Program-made: the position numbers and the translations under genes
Notes under the pieces: model-generated
The model's input: only the letters and a program-made list of their open reading frames with translations
Told to the model about the DNA's origin: nothing
The model's database searches: none
DNA from: a virus
Taxonomy: Duplodnaviria; Heunggongvirae; Uroviricota; Caudoviricetes
Strand: one strand, 5' to 3'
IMG/VR virus record: IMGVR_UViG_2690316248_000008
DNA length: 17,916 bases
In this document: positions 6,698 through 12,868 of the stretch, in pieces
Numbering within the stretch: the first letter of the stretch is position 1
Layout: the number at the start of each line of letters is the position of its first letter

Positions 6698-7722
6698 TGG
6701 GAAAGAGTAAGAAGAACCGCGCTGCGTCGACGAACCAGCTCCAGCATAAAAGCCAGACTTCAGCCGAAGCATTCAGCTTCGGTGATCCCGTTCCTGTTCT
6801 GGACCGCCGTGAACTGCTGGACTATGTGGAATGCGTACAGACAGATCGCTGGTATGAGCCGCCCGTCAGCTTTGACGGACTGGCGCGCACCTTCCGCGCC
6901 GCCGTGCATCACAGTTCTCCGATTGCAGTAAAGTGCAACATTCTGACCAGTACCTATATCCCTCATCCGCTGCTCAGCCAGCAGGCTTTTTCGCGTTTTG
7001 TGCAGGACTATCTGGTATTTGGTAACGCCTACCTGGAGAAACGCACGAACCGATTCGGTGAAGTTATCGCCCTTGATCCTGCGCTGGCAAAATACACCCG
7101 ACGCGGGTTAGACCTGGATACCTACTGGTTTGTGCAATACGGTATGACAACCCAGCCGTATCAGTTCACGAAAGGCAGCATTTTTCATCTGATGGAACCG
7201 GACATCAACCAGGAGATCTACGGCCTGCCCGGCTATCTTTCTGCCATTCCGTCAGCCCTGCTCAATAAGTCCGCCACGCTGTTCCGCCGCAAGTATTACA
7301 TCAACGGCAGCCATGCAGGCTTCATCATGTATATGACCGATGCCGCGCAGAATCAGGAGGATGTGAACAATCTCCGCAACGCGATGAAAAGTGCCAAAGG
7401 TCCTGGTAACTTCCGTAACCTGTTTATGTACTCGCCTAACGGTAAAAAGGACGGGCTTCAGATTATCCCGTTGTCAGAAGTGGCGGCGAAGGATGAGTTC
7501 CTGAATATCAAGAACGTGAGCCGGGACGACATGATGGCGGCGCATCGTGTGCCGCCACAAATGATGGGGATAATGCCTAATAATGTTGGAGGGTTTGGGG
7601 ATGTGGAGAAGGCGAGTAAGGTTTTTGTTAGAAATGAACTAATTCCACTCCAAAAAAGAATAATGGAAGTTAATGAATGGTTAGGTGAGAAAACTATCCG
7701 ATTTCAGCATTATGATTTATAA
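6697..7722 (+). CDS. Q: Portal protein (P2 gpQ-like)
   Basis: 341 aa from the ATG at 6697 (GGAG RBS 9 nt upstream). The ORF-track start at 6694 is a TTG. Followed by a strong terminator. Confidence 0.9.
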   Translation: MGKSKKNRAASTNQLQHKSQTSAEAFSFGDPVPVLDRRELLDYVECVQTDRWYEPPVSFDGLARTFRAAVHHSSPIAVKCNILTSTYIPHPLLSQQAFSRFVQDYLVFGNAYLEKRTNRFGEVIALDPALAKYTRRGLDLDTYWFVQYGMTTQPYQFTKGSIFHLMEPDINQEIYGLPGYLSAIPSALLNKSATLFRRKYYINGSHAGFIMYMTDAAQNQEDVNNLRNAMKSAKGPGNFRNLFMYSPNGKKDGLQIIPLSEVAAKDEFLNIKNVSRDDMMAAHRVPPQMMGIMPNNVGGFGDVEKASKVFVRNELIPLQKRIMEVNEWLGEKTIRFQHYDL

Positions 7723-7747
7723 AAAAACGCCCTAAAAGGGCGTTTTC
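7721..7747. terminator. Bidirectional rho-independent terminator between portal gene Q and the convergent cargo operon
   Basis: AAAACGCCC-TAAAA-GGGCGTTTT hairpin with a 9-bp stem. It is followed by a T-run on the plus strand and by seven T on the minus strand. Confidence 0.7.
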
Positions 7748-8194
7748 CTAAGATTCTGTCGTTGTCTCTAATGAACACCAAGCATTAATTCCCATTTTTG
7801 AGACAGCTATCAACATAATTACTACAGCTGGAGCAATAAATGTTGCTGTTGCCCCCAAAGAACCCGCAATTGCCGAAGAGATCACCCCTACAAAGTATGT
7901 TTTAACATCACCAGTCAGTGCTCCTAAACATTCCCTCTCCTCTGCATATTTATCACCTCCACATACAAAAGCCTTAAACTCTAATTTAAACTGCTCAACA
8001 AACGCTTTTCTTCCCGGCATTTTTGAATTATCACCGCCAAATTGAGCAACTGAACTTGGGCCAGATGCAGTTAGCCATAGCTCAAGAGCCTTTTCTTCAT
8101 CGCCATTTTCGAGAAAATTCCTGACAGATGAAGATTGATACGTTTTTAAAGTGGACAACCAAGACTCAGCATCTTCATTTGGTATAGCAATCAT
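7748..8194 (-). CDS. Hypothetical protein with soluble N-terminal domain and C-terminal membrane anchor; partner of the upstream protease
   Basis: 148 aa. The C-terminal hydrophobic stretch YFVGVISSAIAGSLGATATFIAPAVVIMLIAVSKMGI is about 35 residues, enough for one long helix or a TM hairpin. ATG overlaps the protease stop (ATGA at 8191-8194). AT-rich codon usage, unlike the phage core. Confidence 0.6.
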   Translation of the reverse strand: MIAIPNEDAESWLSTLKTYQSSSVRNFLENGDEEKALELWLTASGPSSVAQFGGDNSKMPGRKAFVEQFKLEFKAFVCGGDKYAEERECLGALTGDVKTYFVGVISSAIAGSLGATATFIAPAVVIMLIAVSKMGINAWCSLETTTES

Positions 8195-8838
8195 AACATA
8201 TCCTTAACATATTCTGCAGAAACCGCATAAGTTGTCTGATGTAGTTCAGCTGGATTAATACCTCCAACCAAAACAGAACCTCCAGAATTATTTGCATAAG
8301 CGCCAACCAAGACGCCTATTACCGAGTCATTTTTTAAATTAAATACAATCGATCCCGATTGACCAGGTCTGGTTTGGATATTTATAACGGCATGTTTAGA
8401 TTGAATATTACTGCTTGAAAGTAAAACTTTTGCACCTATTTTTGCCGTTTGAAATGTCAATACTTTTCTATTTTCATTACAATGTGGGAAACCTAAAATA
8501 CCCACATCTTCACCGACATTAACATCGTCAAGAGTAGCAATTTTTAGGCAAGGTTCATAAACAGGTGCATTTTTAATTTTTAACACACATAAGTCTTTTA
8601 TTGGATCTTCATCAATAACATCAACTCCAATACATTGAAATTTATCAACACTTGTATCCTGATAACTATTAAAGTTATTTATATTAGATGGAGAAATAAC
8701 TAAGTTAGAAGAAAACCCATTAATAACATGGCGGGAAGTAATTATTTTATCCTTAGAAATAAAAAAACCTGTTCCTAAAAAACTAACCAAACCTGCATTA
8801 AGCACGCCAACAACTACGACATATTCAGGACCAATCAT
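8191..8838 (-). CDS. Trypsin-fold (chymotrypsin-like, S1/Trypsin_2-type) serine protease
   Basis: Catalytic triad motifs in canonical order: GTGFFISKDKIITSRHVI (His), DLCVLKI (Asp), PGQSGSIVF (Ser). Start set at the ATG at 8838 with GGAG about 5-8 nt upstream. The ORF-track extension to 8976 would run across the cos-like sequence. Confidence 0.75.
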   Translation of the reverse strand: MIGPEYVVVVGVLNAGLVSFLGTGFFISKDKIITSRHVINGFSSNLVISPSNINNFNSYQDTSVDKFQCIGVDVIDEDPIKDLCVLKIKNAPVYEPCLKIATLDDVNVGEDVGILGFPHCNENRKVLTFQTAKIGAKVLLSSSNIQSKHAVINIQTRPGQSGSIVFNLKNDSVIGVLVGAYANNSGGSVLVGGINPAELHQTTYAVSAEYVKDML

Positions 8839-8921
8839 AACAACTCCATTCTGTAATATGTTATGGACTCTGACTAAGACAATACTTAACCAAACCGTGA
8901 ATATCAAGGTGCAAGCGCGCG

Positions 8922-8940
8922 CTCGTATCCCCGCCACGCC
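8922..8940 (-). other. Putative cos cohesive-end sequence
   Basis: The minus strand reads GGCGTGGCGGGGATACGAG. Its first 13 nt match the 186-type cohesive end as I recall it (GGCGTGGCGGGGA...), and the adjacent AGCGCGCG resembles the sequence next to P2 cos. Orientation relative to Q is as expected. Based on recalled sequences, not a search. Confidence 0.4.
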
Positions 8941-8989
8941 TGCCCGCTTTATGTAGTGGTTTTCATGCAGGAGCATGATCTACGCAAAA

Positions 8990-9009
8990 GCCCGCCAGTT
9001 CTGGCGGGC
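8990..9009. other. Perfect 9-bp inverted repeat (GCCCGCCAG-TT-CTGGCGGGC) beside the cos-like site
   Basis: Read directly from sequence. A T-run follows only on the minus strand. Could be a terminator or a packaging/cos accessory structure. Confidence 0.35.
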
Positions 9010-9282
9010 CTTAGCAAAAACGATCCTCAAACGATCATGCAATCTCATGCAGCATAGACATGCACAGACGAGTAAAGCGAATCGGACTTTACGCAAGGTG
9101 AACTCCTCAGCGGGCATAATCAGTATGTCGGAAGATCTCTAAAAATAAATAATTCGGTTAACAGGTATGCTTACAAAAGCATATATTTGATTAAAAATCA
9201 TGTAAGGGGGAGGATCTCAAACTGAATCGCCACGGGTTTTACAAATTTCGATAGTCTCTCTAACGTTTCGGCTGAGGTCAAA

Positions 9283-9708
9283 ATGAAAAGCTTTTACGTA
9301 TTAATTTTAATTCTGGTTGCAAGCTTTGTTAGCGTCCCTGTTCAGGCGGTAACAGCTAAAAACTATGAGAAAGGAACTAAAGCTCAACAGAAATCAATAT
9401 CTTACCTTTCATGTGCATTCTATGGCAGTAGCACACAATTAGATCCTAGCTACACGGAGCAAGTACCTACAGCCGATATCAAGATATTACAGAAAGCAGC
9501 TTACCACGCTTACAACGATGCGCTCTCATACTTTGGCTATGAGGAACCAGATCACGAACAACGCATAATTGATTATGCTGAATTTGTGGCGTCGCAAGAA
9601 GCTGTGTTATGGGATAAGCCGGGAATGAATGGAAAGCAGGTAACACTAATTGCTCGTTCTCTCTACAATGAGAGTAACTGTAACTTGTTACTGGACTCAA
9701 TTAAGTAG
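9283..9708 (+). CDS. Hypothetical secreted/periplasmic protein (cargo moron)
   Basis: 141 aa. N-terminal signal peptide MKSFYVLILILVASFVSVPVQA with an AXA-type cleavage site. GAGG RBS upstream. AT-rich; the only plus-strand gene between cos and gene A. Confidence 0.6.
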   Translation: MKSFYVLILILVASFVSVPVQAVTAKNYEKGTKAQQKSISYLSCAFYGSSTQLDPSYTEQVPTADIKILQKAAYHAYNDALSYFGYEEPDHEQRIIDYAEFVASQEAVLWDKPGMNGKQVTLIARSLYNESNCNLLLDSIK

Positions 9709-9867
9709 GAAAAAGATGGTATTTTGCCCGTAGTTTCAACCTTAATCTCCGAACCTATCGCAGAACGGGCGTTCACTCATCAAATAAACGCCACACCTAA
9801 CGCCTCACTGTACTCGTTGTTCAACCTTGCTGACGCCAGAACCAAGTTCAGACGCCAGCAACTTTTC

Positions 9868-10101
9868 TTAATGCAGCCAGCTGTCGTCTTCCCACACCTT
9901 CTGCATAATCTTCATCACTTGTTTTCTTTCTTCGTCCAGTTGCAGTCCGGTCAGTTCCACACCGTTAGAGCTACCTTTGCGGATGCGAATTACCGTTTTG
10001 GGATACAGGGGGCGCAGATTGCGGTAAAGCTCGGATTCAAGGGCGTCCAGGGTAGACTGGCTAATCTTCTGCTCTTTATCGATCATTATTTCAATGCGCA
10101 T
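9868..10101 (-). CDS. DinI-family protein (Tum C-terminal-like)
   Basis: 77 aa from the ATG at 10101. MRIEIMIDK...LDALESEL...KIMQKVWEDDSW resembles E. coli DinI (MRIEV..., ending with an acidic W-containing tail). RBS GAGGTGA overlaps the stop of the upstream gene. Confidence 0.8.
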   Translation of the reverse strand: MRIEIMIDKEQKISQSTLDALESELYRNLRPLYPKTVIRIRKGSSNGVELTGLQLDEERKQVMKIMQKVWEDDSWLH

Positions 10102-10111
10102 AAAGGTCACC

Positions 10112-10300
10112 TCAGCTGATGACATCCATTGAGCGGTTGTATTCGTGGGTTCTGATTTTTGCCATGAGTTCATCTGTCAGTTCAGAAACCCACTGCAAAG
10201 CCAGCCCCTTCTCTTCATCACTACACTCACTAGCCGCTACAAGCTTAAGAAAAAAATCAATGCGCTGGAGCTTCAAAGACTCCAAAAAATAGTCCTGCAT
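10112..10300 (-). CDS. Small SOS-regulated protein, possible Tum-like antirepressor N-terminal part
   Basis: 62 aa from the ATG at 10300, with AGGAGG 4 nt upstream. It is the first gene downstream of the LexA box and 10 bp upstream of the DinI-like gene. Confidence 0.5.
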   Translation of the reverse strand: MQDYFLESLKLQRIDFFLKLVAASECSDEEKGLALQWVSELTDELMAKIRTHEYNRSMDVIS

Positions 10301-10341
10301 CTTTCCTCCTATGACACCACAAGCAATACTGTATACATAAC

Positions 10342-10361
10342 CACTGTTTATATTTACAGTA
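10342..10361. promoter_or_regulatory. LexA operator (SOS box) in the promoter of the small-protein/DinI-like operon
   Basis: CACTGTTTATATTTACAGTA is a perfect CTGT-N8-ACAG palindrome with an AT-rich core. Candidate -35 TTTACA and -10 TATACT on the minus strand overlap it. Confidence 0.7.
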
Positions 10362-10453
10362 TATAATAATCTTACTGATGTAAAACGTTTTTTTACGTTC
10401 ATTAGCCTGATATGCCTGGTATTATTAAGAGCACGAATTGTTAACCCGCGTAA

Positions 10454-12868
10454 TTAATACAGGTTTCGCCACTTATCATCTTCCTGCAAACGCTGGTTCC
10501 GATAGAAGATACGCAGGCCTGCTCCTGACGGAATACTGCCGCCGCGAAGGAGTAAATCGACCTCTTTCTCGCTGCCATTAAATCCTCTGGACTTCAGTTC
10601 ATAGACGAGCTGCTGTCGCTGATGGTCTATAATTCGCTGTTTGTAGTCTTTACGCCGTTTCGGTTTCACCAGGCGTAACCTTGCAGCCAGTTCCCGGCGC
10701 TCTTTTTTGCTCATACTGTGCAGGTAATCGTGCAACTCCTTGTCATCCATGCGGGTAATGTCCGTCCTGGTATCCCCATCAGCTGATTTGTCTTTCCCTT
10801 GTTGGTTCAAATTTTCAGCAAGGGGACAGTTATTGCCACGAGTCCAAGGGGCGCAAGCGCCCTGGTCGGCTGCCGCCTCCTGAACGTCAACGGCTTTACG
10901 AACCATTTTCCACTTCACTGCATGAGTGCAGATCTTGCCTTCTGCAATGGGTGACCAGATGCCATAAATACGAATACCGTGATCGCCATAGGCGGTCGGC
11001 TCTTCATTGATTTCATAAGCGGTTCTGATCAAGTGATATTTGCGAGGAACCAGCACGCCGCCCTGCCTCATAATGTAGGTGGCAAAACAGCCAGCATCAG
11101 CAGCAGCCAGGATGGCATCAAGGCGCGGGTTATCCAGTACCGGCGCACCTGCTTTTTTGTCACCCTGCTGCCTTGCCGCCTGACCAGCCAACAACCGCAG
11201 TTCACGGTAAGCCTGACGCCCTGGAATACCAAAGAAGCGGAATTGCTGAACACGATGCAGAGACGCCCAGGCATTAACGTATTCAGCGTTATCACGCAGG
11301 GATTTACCCGTTTCCTTGCTGATCTCGCCAGCCAGACCACGCCCGTCAATGTTCTTACTGATGTATTTCGCGATGTAGCTTGTCGGCGTTCCTTTGCGCG
11401 GGTTTATCAGCTCAGATTTAAAGCGTGGACCAGTGTTATTACCCAGTTCCTCGCGGTCTTCACGGATGGCAAACTTACGCAACAATGCAGTAATGGCGCG
11501 GCGGTCTTTTTTGCGCATAAAACACAACAGGTGCCAGTGAACTGTACCGTCATGATGCGGCTCAGCCACCCGCACGCCATACCAGCGCAACCCGGCTTTG
11601 TGCATCGCCTTACGAAATGCAGCAAACATGCCGACCAGATAATCGCTGCTTTGTCTTACCGTCGCATTTGTCCAGGTTGGGTTTGGTCTGCCGTTATTGA
11701 GCGTGGAATGGAAACGTGACGGACAGGTAATGGTGTAGAAAACGGCGCAGTCACCGCGCATTTCCGCGATAAGCTCCAGACCTTTAACACAGGCCATCAT
11801 CTCATTGCGGCGGTGCGCCGGGTTGCTGCTGCTGGCGTTTACCACGTCTTCCATATCCAGCGTGTCGCCCTCTTCGTTCACCAGTTCATGAGAACGGAAA
11901 AACTCCAGTGACTTGCGGCGCTGCTCACGTTTATGCATCACGGCTTCATAGCTGACATAGGGAGATGCTTTTTTGCTGACCAGGCAGACAGCACGCAACT
12001 GCTCTTCCCGCCATTCGCAACGCATTTTCCATAATTTCCGGTACCACCAGTCGGCGCACAACATACGCGCCAGCGAACCCGGAATGAGTTCATAGGGCAC
12101 GGGTTTACGGCGGTTTCTTTTCCGACGGAGTTGCTCAAACGCAGGCGGGATGACATCCAGACGCAGGGTTTCCGCTGCCACCTTTTCCCATGTCTTGCGG
12201 ATTTCTTCTGGCTTAACGTCATCGGTGGCATACAAATCACCACAAGCTGCATCAAGGCACATGCTCATATGCGCAGCGACAAGGGTAGACAGGCGTTTCA
12301 CCTGATCCTGACTCATTTCAGGCAGAATCAGCAGGCCGTCCAGCCCTACATGGCTTGCCATAAAACGAAAAGATGCAGATAGCTGGCTGTCGCGTACATG
12401 CTCCAGTCGTTCCAGACATGGCTTAATCGTCTCACGTAAATAGCGGGAATAAGCCTTTGGCCTGCCCAGGCTGCTGAAGTATTCAATACGTTGCATCAGC
12501 GGCTTGCTGATATGGGAAGGCTGGGCGTTGACGTCCGCCAGAATGACCATATCCGGATTAAAACGCTGCTGCTCATGCGCCAGCTTTGCCCGGCTAATGA
12601 GCTTATCCTGCTCCATTTCGTGCTGGACAGGATCACGTGATTCATTAAAAAAATAACGCTCCCAGACCTGATCACTCAGTGCCTCGCGGCGCAACTGTTC
12701 CTGCTCGTTATCGGCAGCGTACAGAGTGATCAGGTTTGAAAGCGCAGAAACCGGCGCAACTTCCGCCGGGTCCAGATAAGGGTTAATGGCCTTTTTCGGG
12801 CTGTTCCATGAGAACGCTGCGGCAGCCTCGTTAAAGCCGCAGCAGTTGTTCATATCGGCATGGCTCAT
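10454..12868 (-). CDS. A: Replication initiation endonuclease (P2/186 gpA-like, rolling-circle initiator)
   Basis: 804 aa, the largest early gene, in the gpA position downstream of the early operon. Call rests on size, position and overall resemblance to P2/186 A proteins; no single motif was verified. ATG overlaps the Dam stop (ATGA). Confidence 0.85.

What the first reader, a model, noticed from the sequence alone, without database searches (positions are those of the whole stretch)
9283..9708. AT-rich secreted-protein gene of unknown function in the cos-to-A cargo position
A 141-aa protein with a clear signal peptide, encoded on the opposite strand to all surrounding phage genes, in the region where P2 carries old and tin. 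The call as cargo is positional; I recognise no family.
Basis: inference. Interest (0 to 1): 0.45.

Follow-up and report, generated by a model that had tools for sequence, protein, structure and literature searches.

The report
Exported prophage cargo protein beside cos
A P2-type prophage of E. coli carries, in the slot where phage P2 keeps its anti-phage genes old and tin, a 731-base stand-alone cassette for a small exported helical protein from an uncharacterised family; it is probably a lysogen-protecting envelope factor, but its activity is untested.

Summary
ORF 9283-9708 (+) is a real gene under purifying selection (dN/dS 0.13-0.26) and was intact in 39 of 39 full copies examined. It encodes a 141-aa precursor with a canonical Sec signal peptide (cleavage after VQA22). 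The mature protein is 119 aa and acidic, with two invariant cysteines and a confidently predicted five-helix bundle (pLDDT 95).

I mapped the cos site to 8922-8940. The gene therefore lies between cos and DinI/gpA, which is the old/tin position of P2, and it has the same orientation as old and tin. An empty-slot allele defines a 731-bp cassette (9066-9796, 41% GC). That cassette is present in 101 of about 1,130-1,280 E. coli genomes that carry this backbone.

The gene is independent of the neighbouring PDC-M35 defence candidate. PDC-M35 sits in a separate slot between the portal gene and cos, and that slot varies freely among carriers.

The most likely function is envelope-level protection of the lysogen, analogous to T4 Spackle but not homologous to it. 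I put this at about 0.35, and it is inferred, not shown.

The parts
9066..9796 (+). Self-contained cargo cassette (731 bp, 40.6% GC) inserted between the cos block and the DinI flank
   Evidence: In the empty-slot allele L065, the cos block (= window 8914-9065) and the DinI flank (= window 9797 onward) are 7 bp apart. The cassette is 99-100% identical in 101 E. coli genomes and in more than 35 viral or metagenome loci.
9158..9187 (+). Candidate sigma-70 promoter: TTAACA, 18-nt spacer, TATATT
   Evidence: This was the best promoter-like site in the region, matching 10 of 12 positions, although the number of sites in the region is no higher than in shuffled sequence. Both hexamers are retained in the Klebsiella-type cassettes L043 and L044, which are 81-88% identical here (TTAACA or CTAACA; TATGTT). 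Function is inferred.
9274..9277 (+). Shine-Dalgarno GAGG, 5 nt upstream of the ATG
   Evidence: Read directly from the sequence. It is invariant in L043 and L044.
9283..9348 (+). Sec-type signal peptide (residues 1-22, predicted cleavage VQA|VT)
   Evidence: Translation and hydrophobicity plus the -3/-1 rule across the family. There is no lipobox.
9349..9708 (+). Mature 119-aa acidic (pI 5.1) five-helix periplasmic domain plus stop codon. Invariant residues are C44 (9412-9414), C133 (9679-9681), W110, Y128 and N132.
   Evidence: Family alignments A2 and A4. AlphaFold2 gives pLDDT 95.2 and pTM 0.88, with helices at mature residues 3-28, 41-61, 69-88, 98-108 and 111-118. pI values come.
8914..9065 (.). 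Conserved cos block (context, not part of the cassette). The 19-nt cohesive-end equivalent is at 8922-8940.
   Evidence: The block is conserved at 84-100% identity in about 1,278 E. coli genomes, whatever cargo flanks it, and in Fels-2 and other Peduoviridae. It aligns to the P2 cosR/cosL junction.
7748..8838 (-). Neighbouring but independent cargo in the portal-to-cos slot: the PDC-M35 candidate defence pair (trypsin-like protease 8191-8838 and membrane protein 7748-8194)
   Evidence: PADLOC E-values are 8e-94 and 4e-58, and Pfam Trypsin_2 matches at 2e-15. PGAP coordinates come from the identical locus in strain SF-468. Only 13 genomes carry this pair together with the target, against 101 that carry the target.
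9868..10101 (-). DinI-like gene, the first backbone gene on the right of the slot (context)
   Evidence: Pfam DinI 1.3e-22. Annotated as WP_001217575. Homology breakpoints among 1,127 genomes fall at 9813-9870.

Best explanation
SHOWN.
- The gene is a compact, horizontally mobile cargo cassette ('moron') in a Fels-2/P2-type prophage.
- It sits in the slot between cos and the DinI-gpA early operon, the position and orientation of P2 old and tin.
- It encodes a precursor with a Sec signal peptide.
- The mature 119-aa protein is acidic, has exactly two invariant cysteines, and is predicted with high confidence to be a five-helix bundle.
- The gene is kept intact and under purifying selection while the cargo in the other slot (portal to cos) is swapped freely.

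INFERRED.
- The cassette is transcribed from its own sigma-70 promoter in the lysogen, against the repressed early operon, as old and tin are in P2.
- The protein is exported to the periplasm. There DsbA would form a C44-C133 disulfide that ties helix 1 to the helix 4/5 junction.

MOST LIKELY FUNCTION (inferred, about 0.35).
- The protein is a single-gene, envelope-level protection factor for the lysogen.
- It would bind and neutralise a periplasm-exposed component of a superinfecting phage, such as a tail-associated peptidoglycan hydrolase, or an ejection or tape-measure protein, or the host factor these use.
- This would block entry before the invading DNA reaches the cytoplasm.
- It would then work like T4 Spackle, a small acidic periplasmic helical bundle with one disulfide that inhibits the gp5 tail lysozyme. 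It is not related to Spackle.
For: The gene is real and constrained: dN/dS 0.13-0.26, 39 of 39 full copies intact with only 5 protein variants, and pLDDT 95.2.

Export: a signal peptide and exactly two cysteines occur in all 18 family members, all of which are acidic with pI 4.5-5.9.

Cargo status and slot: cos was mapped. The empty allele L065 defines the 731-bp cassette. It is present in 101 of 1,127-1,278 genomes with this backbone. GC is 41% against 50%. In P2, old and tin occupy the same arm in the same orientation, and the old-tin mRNA starts are annotated about 150 nt from cosR.

Independence from PDC-M35: carriers show at least 20 different portal-to-cos distances, from 628 to 3,357 bp, and different slot-1 genes. 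Rousset et al. Table S5A lists WP_000834899 together with HIRAN, DUF262/DUF1524 or Trypsin_2 cargo, and the near-identical variant WP_021561694 as the only cargo.

Association with defence:
- A Hafnia orthologue (77% identity) sits in a different P2 cargo slot (between genes S and V), next to PDC-S11.
- A 40%-identical relative sits beside an AbiJ-type PDC-S32 gene next to an integrase.
- Other relatives are lone genes at prophage ends and in IncFIB phage-plasmid-like replicons; in those replicons they are oriented against their neighbours.

Architectural analogy: Spackle is a periplasmic helical bundle with a Cys29-Cys81 disulfide (PMC7677548) and pI 4.6.
Against: - No experiment or expression data bears on this gene.
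- The anti-phage role rests on position and neighbours only.
- No PADLOC model matches.
- The same cos-DinI slot also holds cargo that is not obviously anti-phage, such as an HNH endonuclease or an RNase A-like toxin with a CDI immunity gene.
- The promoter is only a consensus match, and the number of such matches in the region is at chance level.
- No convincing intrinsic terminator follows the gene (z-score -0.9).
- Many carriers are extraintestinal or avian pathogenic isolates, which would fit a host-interaction role equally well.
Confidence: 0.35

Rival explanations
1. Orphan periplasmic immunity protein. It would neutralise an antibacterial toxin that acts in the periplasm, such as a T6SS amidase or muramidase, a colicin M- or pesticin-like bacteriocin, or a peptidoglycan hydrolase. 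The phage would carry it to protect its host in bacterial competition.
Confidence: 0.22
2. Host-interaction or stress factor. It would be a lysogenic-conversion protein that improves survival in an animal host or under envelope stress, for example as a periplasmic chaperone or as an inhibitor of host muramidases or proteases. It would have no role in conflicts between phages or between bacteria.
For: Prophage morons often encode envelope virulence or fitness factors (established knowledge: Bor, Lom, SodC). Carriers include bloodstream isolates and APEC O1:K1:H7 strains. Periplasmic location and a disulfide suit a stable envelope protein.
Confidence: 0.15
3. Accessory to the phage's own lytic cycle, for example by modulating lysis timing or by protecting progeny from being inactivated on cell debris.
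For: In one Klebsiella prophage family, the relative lies in a co-oriented gene run upstream of HNH and terminase, a region that often holds lysis genes.
Against: In the window the gene is oriented against both flanking operons and lies outside the lysis cassette. About 90% of otherwise 95-99% identical prophages lack it. The closest sequenced phages lack it. The neighbours in the Klebsiella run match no holin, endolysin or spanin family.
Confidence: 0.08
4. Third component of the adjacent PDC-M35 protease and membrane-protein candidate defence system.
For: The two are adjacent in this window, and both involve the envelope (PDC-M35B has a C-terminal membrane segment).
Against: The cos site separates them, and they point away from each other. 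Only 13 genomes have both, against 101 with the target. The target occurs with at least 20 other slot-1 contents, or with none. PADLOC defines PDC-M35 as two genes.
Confidence: 0.03

Closest known systems
P2 old and tin (lysogenic-conversion, phage-exclusion genes in the cos-to-A arm of phage P2)
   Same: The genomic slot (between cos and the end of the gpA operon) is the same. The orientation is the same: transcribed from the cos side towards A, against the early operon. Both are non-essential, variably present and AT-rich.
   Different: There is no sequence relationship. Old is a cytoplasmic AAA/OLD nuclease and Tin is a cytoplasmic protein, whereas this protein carries a signal peptide and is predicted to act in the periplasm.
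T4 Spackle (Sp, gp61.3), a periplasmic superinfection-exclusion protein
   Same: Both are small and acidic, have a cleaved signal peptide, and form a compact alpha-helical bundle. Both have two cysteines that link the N-terminal helix to the C-terminal region (PMC7677548). Both are phage-encoded single genes.
Cargo of the P2 gpA-gpQ defence hotspot (Rousset et al. 2022, PMC9122126)
   Same: The gene lies inside that hotspot. This very protein (WP_000834899) is listed as 'hypothetical' in several arrangements in their Table S5A.
   Different: It has not been described, named or tested. The characterised systems named in the passages of that paper read here (old, tin, PARIS) act in the cytoplasm. 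Here the hotspot resolves into two independent slots, one on each side of cos.
Tai4/Rap-type periplasmic T6SS immunity proteins
   Different: No Pfam match. No adjacent effector gene. The structural match is no better than to hundreds of unrelated helical proteins.
phrog_7437 (PHROGs family of unknown function)
   Same: Full-length match, E 4e-99, positions 1-141 of 141. The 34%-identical Klebsiella relative also matches (E 2e-14).
   Different: The family carries no annotation and adds no functional information.

Membership tests
phrog_7437 | Significant full-length match to the family HMM | tested here: met
   E 4.3e-99, 329 bits, positions 1-141 of 141.
Moron (independent cargo transcription unit in a phage genome) | Inserted between genes or sites that are adjacent in related phages | tested here: met
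   In L065 the cos block and the DinI flank are 7 bp apart. The window has 731 extra bases.
Moron (independent cargo transcription unit in a phage genome) | Base composition different from the backbone | tested here: met
   40.6% GC against 50.1% for the window. GC3 is 38.7% against 57.1% for gpA.
Moron (independent cargo transcription unit in a phage genome) | Own promoter and own terminator | tested here: inconclusive
   The candidate promoter at 9158-9187 is conserved in diverged cassettes, but the number of consensus matches in the region is at chance level. No convincing intrinsic terminator follows the gene (z-score -0.9).
Moron (independent cargo transcription unit in a phage genome) | Expressed from the repressed prophage | not testable with these tools
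   Needs RNA-seq or 5'-RACE on a lysogen.
P2 gpA-gpQ hotspot anti-phage cargo (Rousset et al. 2022) | Located between gpA and gpQ next to cos, and variably present among P2-like prophages | tested here: met
P2 gpA-gpQ hotspot anti-phage cargo (Rousset et al. 2022) | Confers resistance to phage infection | not testable with these tools
   No phenotype data were found. The accession WP_000834899 occurs in no indexed paper text.
T4 Spackle (Sp) | Sequence homology to gp61.3 | tested here: not met
   hhalign of the family profile against T4 Sp gives probability 0.2% and E 0.29.
T4 Spackle (Sp) | Signal peptide, with a small helical bundle that has one disulfide | tested here: met
   Signal peptide and two invariant cysteines. 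Five-helix model at pLDDT 95. The disulfide itself is inferred.
T4 Spackle (Sp) | Binds and inhibits a phage tail lysozyme | not testable with these tools
   Needs biochemistry.
Tai4/Rap T6SS amidase immunity | Match to the family profile, with a cognate effector gene next to it | tested here: not met
   No Pfam hit in 15 members at E up to 5. No effector in any context examined.
Tai4/Rap T6SS amidase immunity | Specific fold similarity | tested here: inconclusive
PDC-M35 candidate defence system | Match to a PDC-M35 model, or strict co-occurrence with PDC-M35A and B | tested here: not met
   No PADLOC hit for the target. The two co-occur in 13 of the 101 carriers.
Known periplasmic lysozyme inhibitors (Ivy, MliC/PliC, PliG, LprI/DUF1311) | Match to the family profile | tested here: not met
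   No Pfam or NCBIfam hit. A profile search against PDB sequences found nothing at E up to 10.

The most novel reading that the evidence does not exclude
The protein may be the founding member of a previously unrecognised family of single-gene anti-phage factors that act in the periplasm and block entry. The family would be unrelated in sequence and fold to Spackle, Imm, Cor, Llp or SieA. It moves as a minimal cassette between cargo slots of temperate phages and phage-plasmids of Enterobacterales: cos-DinI and S-V in P2-type phages, integrase-proximal ends, and IncFIB phage-plasmids. In some elements it is paired with a conserved two-pass membrane protein.
Probability: 0.3. Interest if true: 0.65.

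Novelty: new member of a known kind. Interest (0 to 1): 0.4.

Why it matters
The characterised P2/P4 hotspot systems seen in the papers consulted here act in the cytoplasm, on nucleic acids, nucleotides or translation. A hotspot gene that is a lone exported protein points to protection at the envelope. That layer of defence is poorly sampled, and tools such as PADLOC have no model for this family. The cassette is only 731 bp and well delimited, so it is easy to clone and test.

Two structural points also help anyone mining these hotspots. First, the gpA-gpQ 'hotspot' is really two independently exchanging slots separated by cos. Second, the same small gene hops between different cargo slots of different temperate elements.

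If the gene turns out to be an immunity or host-interaction factor instead, it would still give a function to a protein found on more than 1,000 public enterobacterial contigs.

Tried and rejected
- **Family libraries.** Pfam, NCBIfam and PADLOC scans of the target found nothing. A Pfam scan of all 15 family members at E up to 5 found nothing consistent.
- **PDB by sequence.** Searches with the single protein and with the family profile gave only chance-level matches to Xaa-Pro dipeptidase, or nothing.
- **Phage collection.** megablast and tblastn with the target and with a distant relative found no sequenced phage that carries the gene.
- **Species-representative genomes.** The second found no relatives, so the gene is strain-level accessory.
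- **Link to PDC-M35.** Rejected on distribution.
- **Paralogy with neighbouring exported proteins.** Some proteins in Klebsiella and Siccibacter islands share a '...C... / ...NC..L' cysteine pattern. hhalign probabilities were 56%, 17% and 7%, with the top value driven by the signal peptide, so this is unsupported.
- **Conserved two-pass membrane partner.** The partner is real in Hafnia and K. aerogenes (28% identity, E 3e-19). It is absent from the window and from most other contexts, so it does not define the family.
- **Structured RNA.** An Rfam scan of 8800-10000 found nothing.
- **One source's label.** One source calls a variant of the protein 'outer membrane lipoprotein-sorting protein'. 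No profile match supports this, and I treat it as an annotation artefact.

Full report
**1. What is at the coordinates**

The window is the head, replication and lysogeny half of a P2-type (Peduoviridae) prophage. The layout is:
- capsid genes, terminase and portal up to 7722;
- gpA at 10454-12868 (-), with Pfam Phage_GPA at 2e-127;
- Dam, a CI-like repressor and an integrase further right.

The backbone is about 96% identical over about 80% of its length to Escherichia phage vB_EcoM-813R9 and Klebsiella phage 4LV2017. The hotspot region is the part that does not match.

The reported ORF is there: 9283-9708 (+), ATG start, 141 codons, with a GAGG ribosome-binding site 5 nt upstream.

**2. It is a real, constrained gene for an exported protein**

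Against four orthologues of 77-91% protein identity, dN/dS is 0.13-0.26. The exact protein occurs on at least 1,000 public contigs, where nearly all sources call it 'hypothetical'.

The N-terminus, MKSFYVLILILVASFVSVPVQA|VT, has the three regions of a Sec signal peptide: a short charged start, a hydrophobic core and a small-residue cleavage motif. It has V-Q-A at -3 to -1 and no lipobox.

A profile search of 1.84 billion representative proteins found only 17 hits at E 0.001 or better. Fourteen of them are small proteins of 94-168 aa, and three weak ones are long proteins matched only over short stretches. Word-indexed searches of 5.8 billion proteins found 7 to 15 clusters. All named sources are Enterobacterales: Escherichia, Klebsiella, Salmonella, Citrobacter, Enterobacter, Hafnia, Lelliottia and Siccibacter.

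Every full-length member has the same kind of leader, exactly two cysteines (C44 and C133 in the window protein), invariant W110, Y128 and N132, and an acidic mature part with pI 4.5-5.9.

AlphaFold2 on the mature part with an 18-sequence alignment gives pLDDT 95.2 and pTM 0.88, and shows five helices. C44 lies in helix 1 and C133 at the junction of helices 4 and 5. I infer a periplasmic disulfide between them.

**3. Where exactly it sits: two slots around cos**

A search with 7650-9900 showed that about 150 bp (8914-9065) are conserved in roughly 1,278 of 5,426 complete E. coli genomes, whatever lies on either side. The same block is conserved in Fels-2 and many other Peduoviridae.

Aligned to the joined ends of P2 (record NC_001895, with cosL and cosR annotated), window 8914-8969 matches across the junction. 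The 19-nt cohesive end corresponds to 8922-8940, whose reverse complement is GGCGTGGCGGGGATACGAG, identical at 14 of 19 positions. A second match (ATGCAATCTCATGCA) falls in the P2 right arm.

The known gpA-gpQ hotspot (Rousset et al. 2022, PMC9122126) therefore resolves into two slots:
- Slot 1 lies between portal and cos. In this window it holds the PDC-M35 pair at 7748-8838.
- Slot 2 lies between cos and DinI. This is the old/tin arm of P2.

The target is in slot 2. Like old and tin, it is transcribed from the cos side towards A.

An empty slot-2 allele (L065) has the cos block and the DinI flank 7 bp apart. This defines the insertion as window 9066-9796: 731 bp at 40.6% GC, against 50.1% for the window.

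Other slot-2 contents are:
- an HNH endonuclease (L066);
- an RNase A-like toxin with a CDI immunity gene (L067);
- Fels-2 STM2726 (L063);
- DUF2971, DUF4145, DUF6236 and ComF-family genes.

**4. Distribution and independence from the neighbours**

101 of 5,426 E. coli genomes carry the cassette at 99% identity or better, always on the chromosome. 1,127 genomes carry the adjacent DinI-gpA backbone. Only 13 carry the whole arrangement seen in the window.

Among the carriers I held, the distance from portal to cos takes more than 20 values, from 628 to 3,357 bp. Slot-1 genes include PDC-M35, a 519-aa hypothetical protein and a DUF262 protein.

Rousset et al. Table S5A lists WP_000834899 as 'hypothetical' together with HIRAN, DUF262/DUF1524 or Trypsin_2 cargo. 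It lists the near-identical variant WP_021561694 as the only cargo. The gene is therefore not a component of PDC-M35.

The block from cos through the cassette, DinI and the end of gpA is 97-100% identical among carriers, while the portal gene is only 77-90% identical. This points to recombination at or near cos.

**5. Relatives elsewhere**

- A 77%-identical orthologue in Hafnia alvei lies in a P2-type prophage but in a different cargo slot, between tail genes S and V (the orf30 position of P2, from my own knowledge of the P2 map). It is preceded by a 215-aa two-pass membrane protein and followed by a PDC-S11 candidate defence nuclease.
- A 34%-identical relative in a K. aerogenes prophage, inserted at the eco-mqo locus, follows a homologous 219-aa membrane protein (28% identity, E 3e-19). 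Three more signal-peptide proteins follow it.
- One relative lies directly after an integrase.
- One lies beside an AbiJ-type PDC-S32 gene and an integrase.
- One lies in the cargo at the end of a Citrobacter prophage.
- One lies in an IS-rich region of a Salmonella plasmid.
- Several lie in 105-116 kb IncFIB non-mobilisable plasmids that carry phage methyltransferase genes (phage-plasmid-like). There the relative is again the only + strand gene among - strand neighbours.

The recurring picture is a lone gene in the accessory regions of temperate elements, in several cases oriented against its neighbours and often next to defence candidates. No toxin, effector or enzyme partner is consistently present.

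**6. What it is not**

- No Pfam, NCBIfam or PADLOC family matches. The only hit is phrog_7437, of unknown function.
- No PDB relative is found by sequence.
- T4 Spackle, the obvious functional analogue, shows no profile similarity (probability 0.2%).

**7. Mechanism**

Shown: this is a mobile 731-bp cassette in the old/tin slot. It encodes a conserved protein with an export signal, an acidic mature part, two cysteines and a five-helix fold.

Inferred: the cassette is transcribed in the lysogen from its own promoter. The candidate is TTAACA-18-TATATT at 9158-9187, and it is retained in diverged cassettes. Export through Sec, cleavage after A22 and DsbA-dependent disulfide formation are also inferred.

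My preferred function, at about 0.35, is envelope-level exclusion of superinfecting phages. The protein would bind a periplasm-exposed phage component or the host factor it uses, which makes it a functional analogue of Spackle. Spackle is likewise a small acidic periplasmic helical bundle with one disulfide (PMC7677548). The basis is position, orientation, neighbours and architecture only.

The rivals are:
- an orphan periplasmic immunity protein against an antibacterial toxin (0.22);
- a host-interaction or stress factor (0.15);
- an accessory to the lytic cycle (0.08);
- a component of PDC-M35 (0.03);
- the remainder is 'something else'.

**8. Novelty and verdict**

The kind of thing, cargo in the P2 cos-proximal hotspot, is known, and this protein already sits unremarked in a published supplementary table. 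The protein family itself is uncharacterised and has no detectable relatives by sequence or fold. An exported single-gene cargo stands out among the hotspot systems I saw characterised.

I rate it a new member of a known kind, with moderate interest (0.4). It is cheap to test and has a reasonable chance of revealing a new envelope-level protection factor.

Noticed in passing
window 8914-9065 (cos core 8922-8940): This is the cos site of the prophage. It lies in the middle of the gpA-gpQ hotspot and splits it into two cargo slots that exchange independently (portal-cos and cos-DinI). The block is conserved in about 1,278 of 5,426 E. coli genomes, whatever the flanking cargo.
   Followed up: yes
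window 7748-8838 (-): A two-gene candidate defence system, PDC-M35. A trypsin-like S1 protease (8191-8838) overlaps by 4 nt with a 148-aa protein that has a C-terminal membrane segment (7748-8194). PADLOC E-values are 8e-94 and 4e-58. This arrangement is rare: 13 genomes.
   Followed up: partly
window 8191-8976 (-): The mechanical ORF for the protease runs 46 codons upstream of the annotated start and across the cos core. The shorter annotated start at 8838 (WP_001350593, 215 aa) is the plausible one.
   Followed up: partly
window 8990-9009: A strong GC-rich inverted repeat, GCCCGCCAG-TT-CTGGCGGGC, lies inside the cos block. On the - strand it is followed by TTTTGCG, so it may terminate read-through from the early operon or be part of the terminase recognition region. 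The terminator scan did not list it.
   Followed up: no
L011 7333-7980 and L004 7267-7926: A 215/219-aa protein with two N-terminal membrane helices and a predicted periplasmic C-terminal domain directly precedes the target's relatives in two unrelated prophages (28% identity, E 3e-19). It has no family assignment and is absent from the window. It may be an optional partner.
   Followed up: partly
L004 8393-9635; L070 6540-7917; L071 5166-7584: Islands at the eco-mqo locus of Klebsiella and Siccibacter hold runs of several small signal-peptide proteins around the family member. Some share a similar cysteine pattern ('...C...' early and 'NC' near the C-terminus), but profile comparison does not support homology.
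   Followed up: partly
L009 6113-6439 and L061 6669-7082 (-): A small lipoprotein with the motif MWNSRY.FKSVGQVM.MCN.GD recurs near family members in two unrelated contigs.
   Followed up: no
L067 3359-4496: In another E. coli P2-type prophage, the cos-DinI slot carries an RNase A-like domain protein plus a CDI-system immunity protein, in the same orientation as the target. The slot therefore also hosts toxin and immunity cargo.
   Followed up: no
window 9868-10402 (-): The first backbone genes right of the slot are a DinI-like gene and a small ORF (phrog_698). The annotated versions are 77 aa and 62 aa, shorter than the mechanical ORFs of 101 aa and 96 aa. In Fels-2 the DinI-like gene is noted as similar to PSP3 TumB.
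   Followed up: no
cluster of the window protein: One public source labels a variant of this protein 'outer membrane lipoprotein-sorting protein'. No profile match supports this, and it looks like an annotation artefact.
   Followed up: partly
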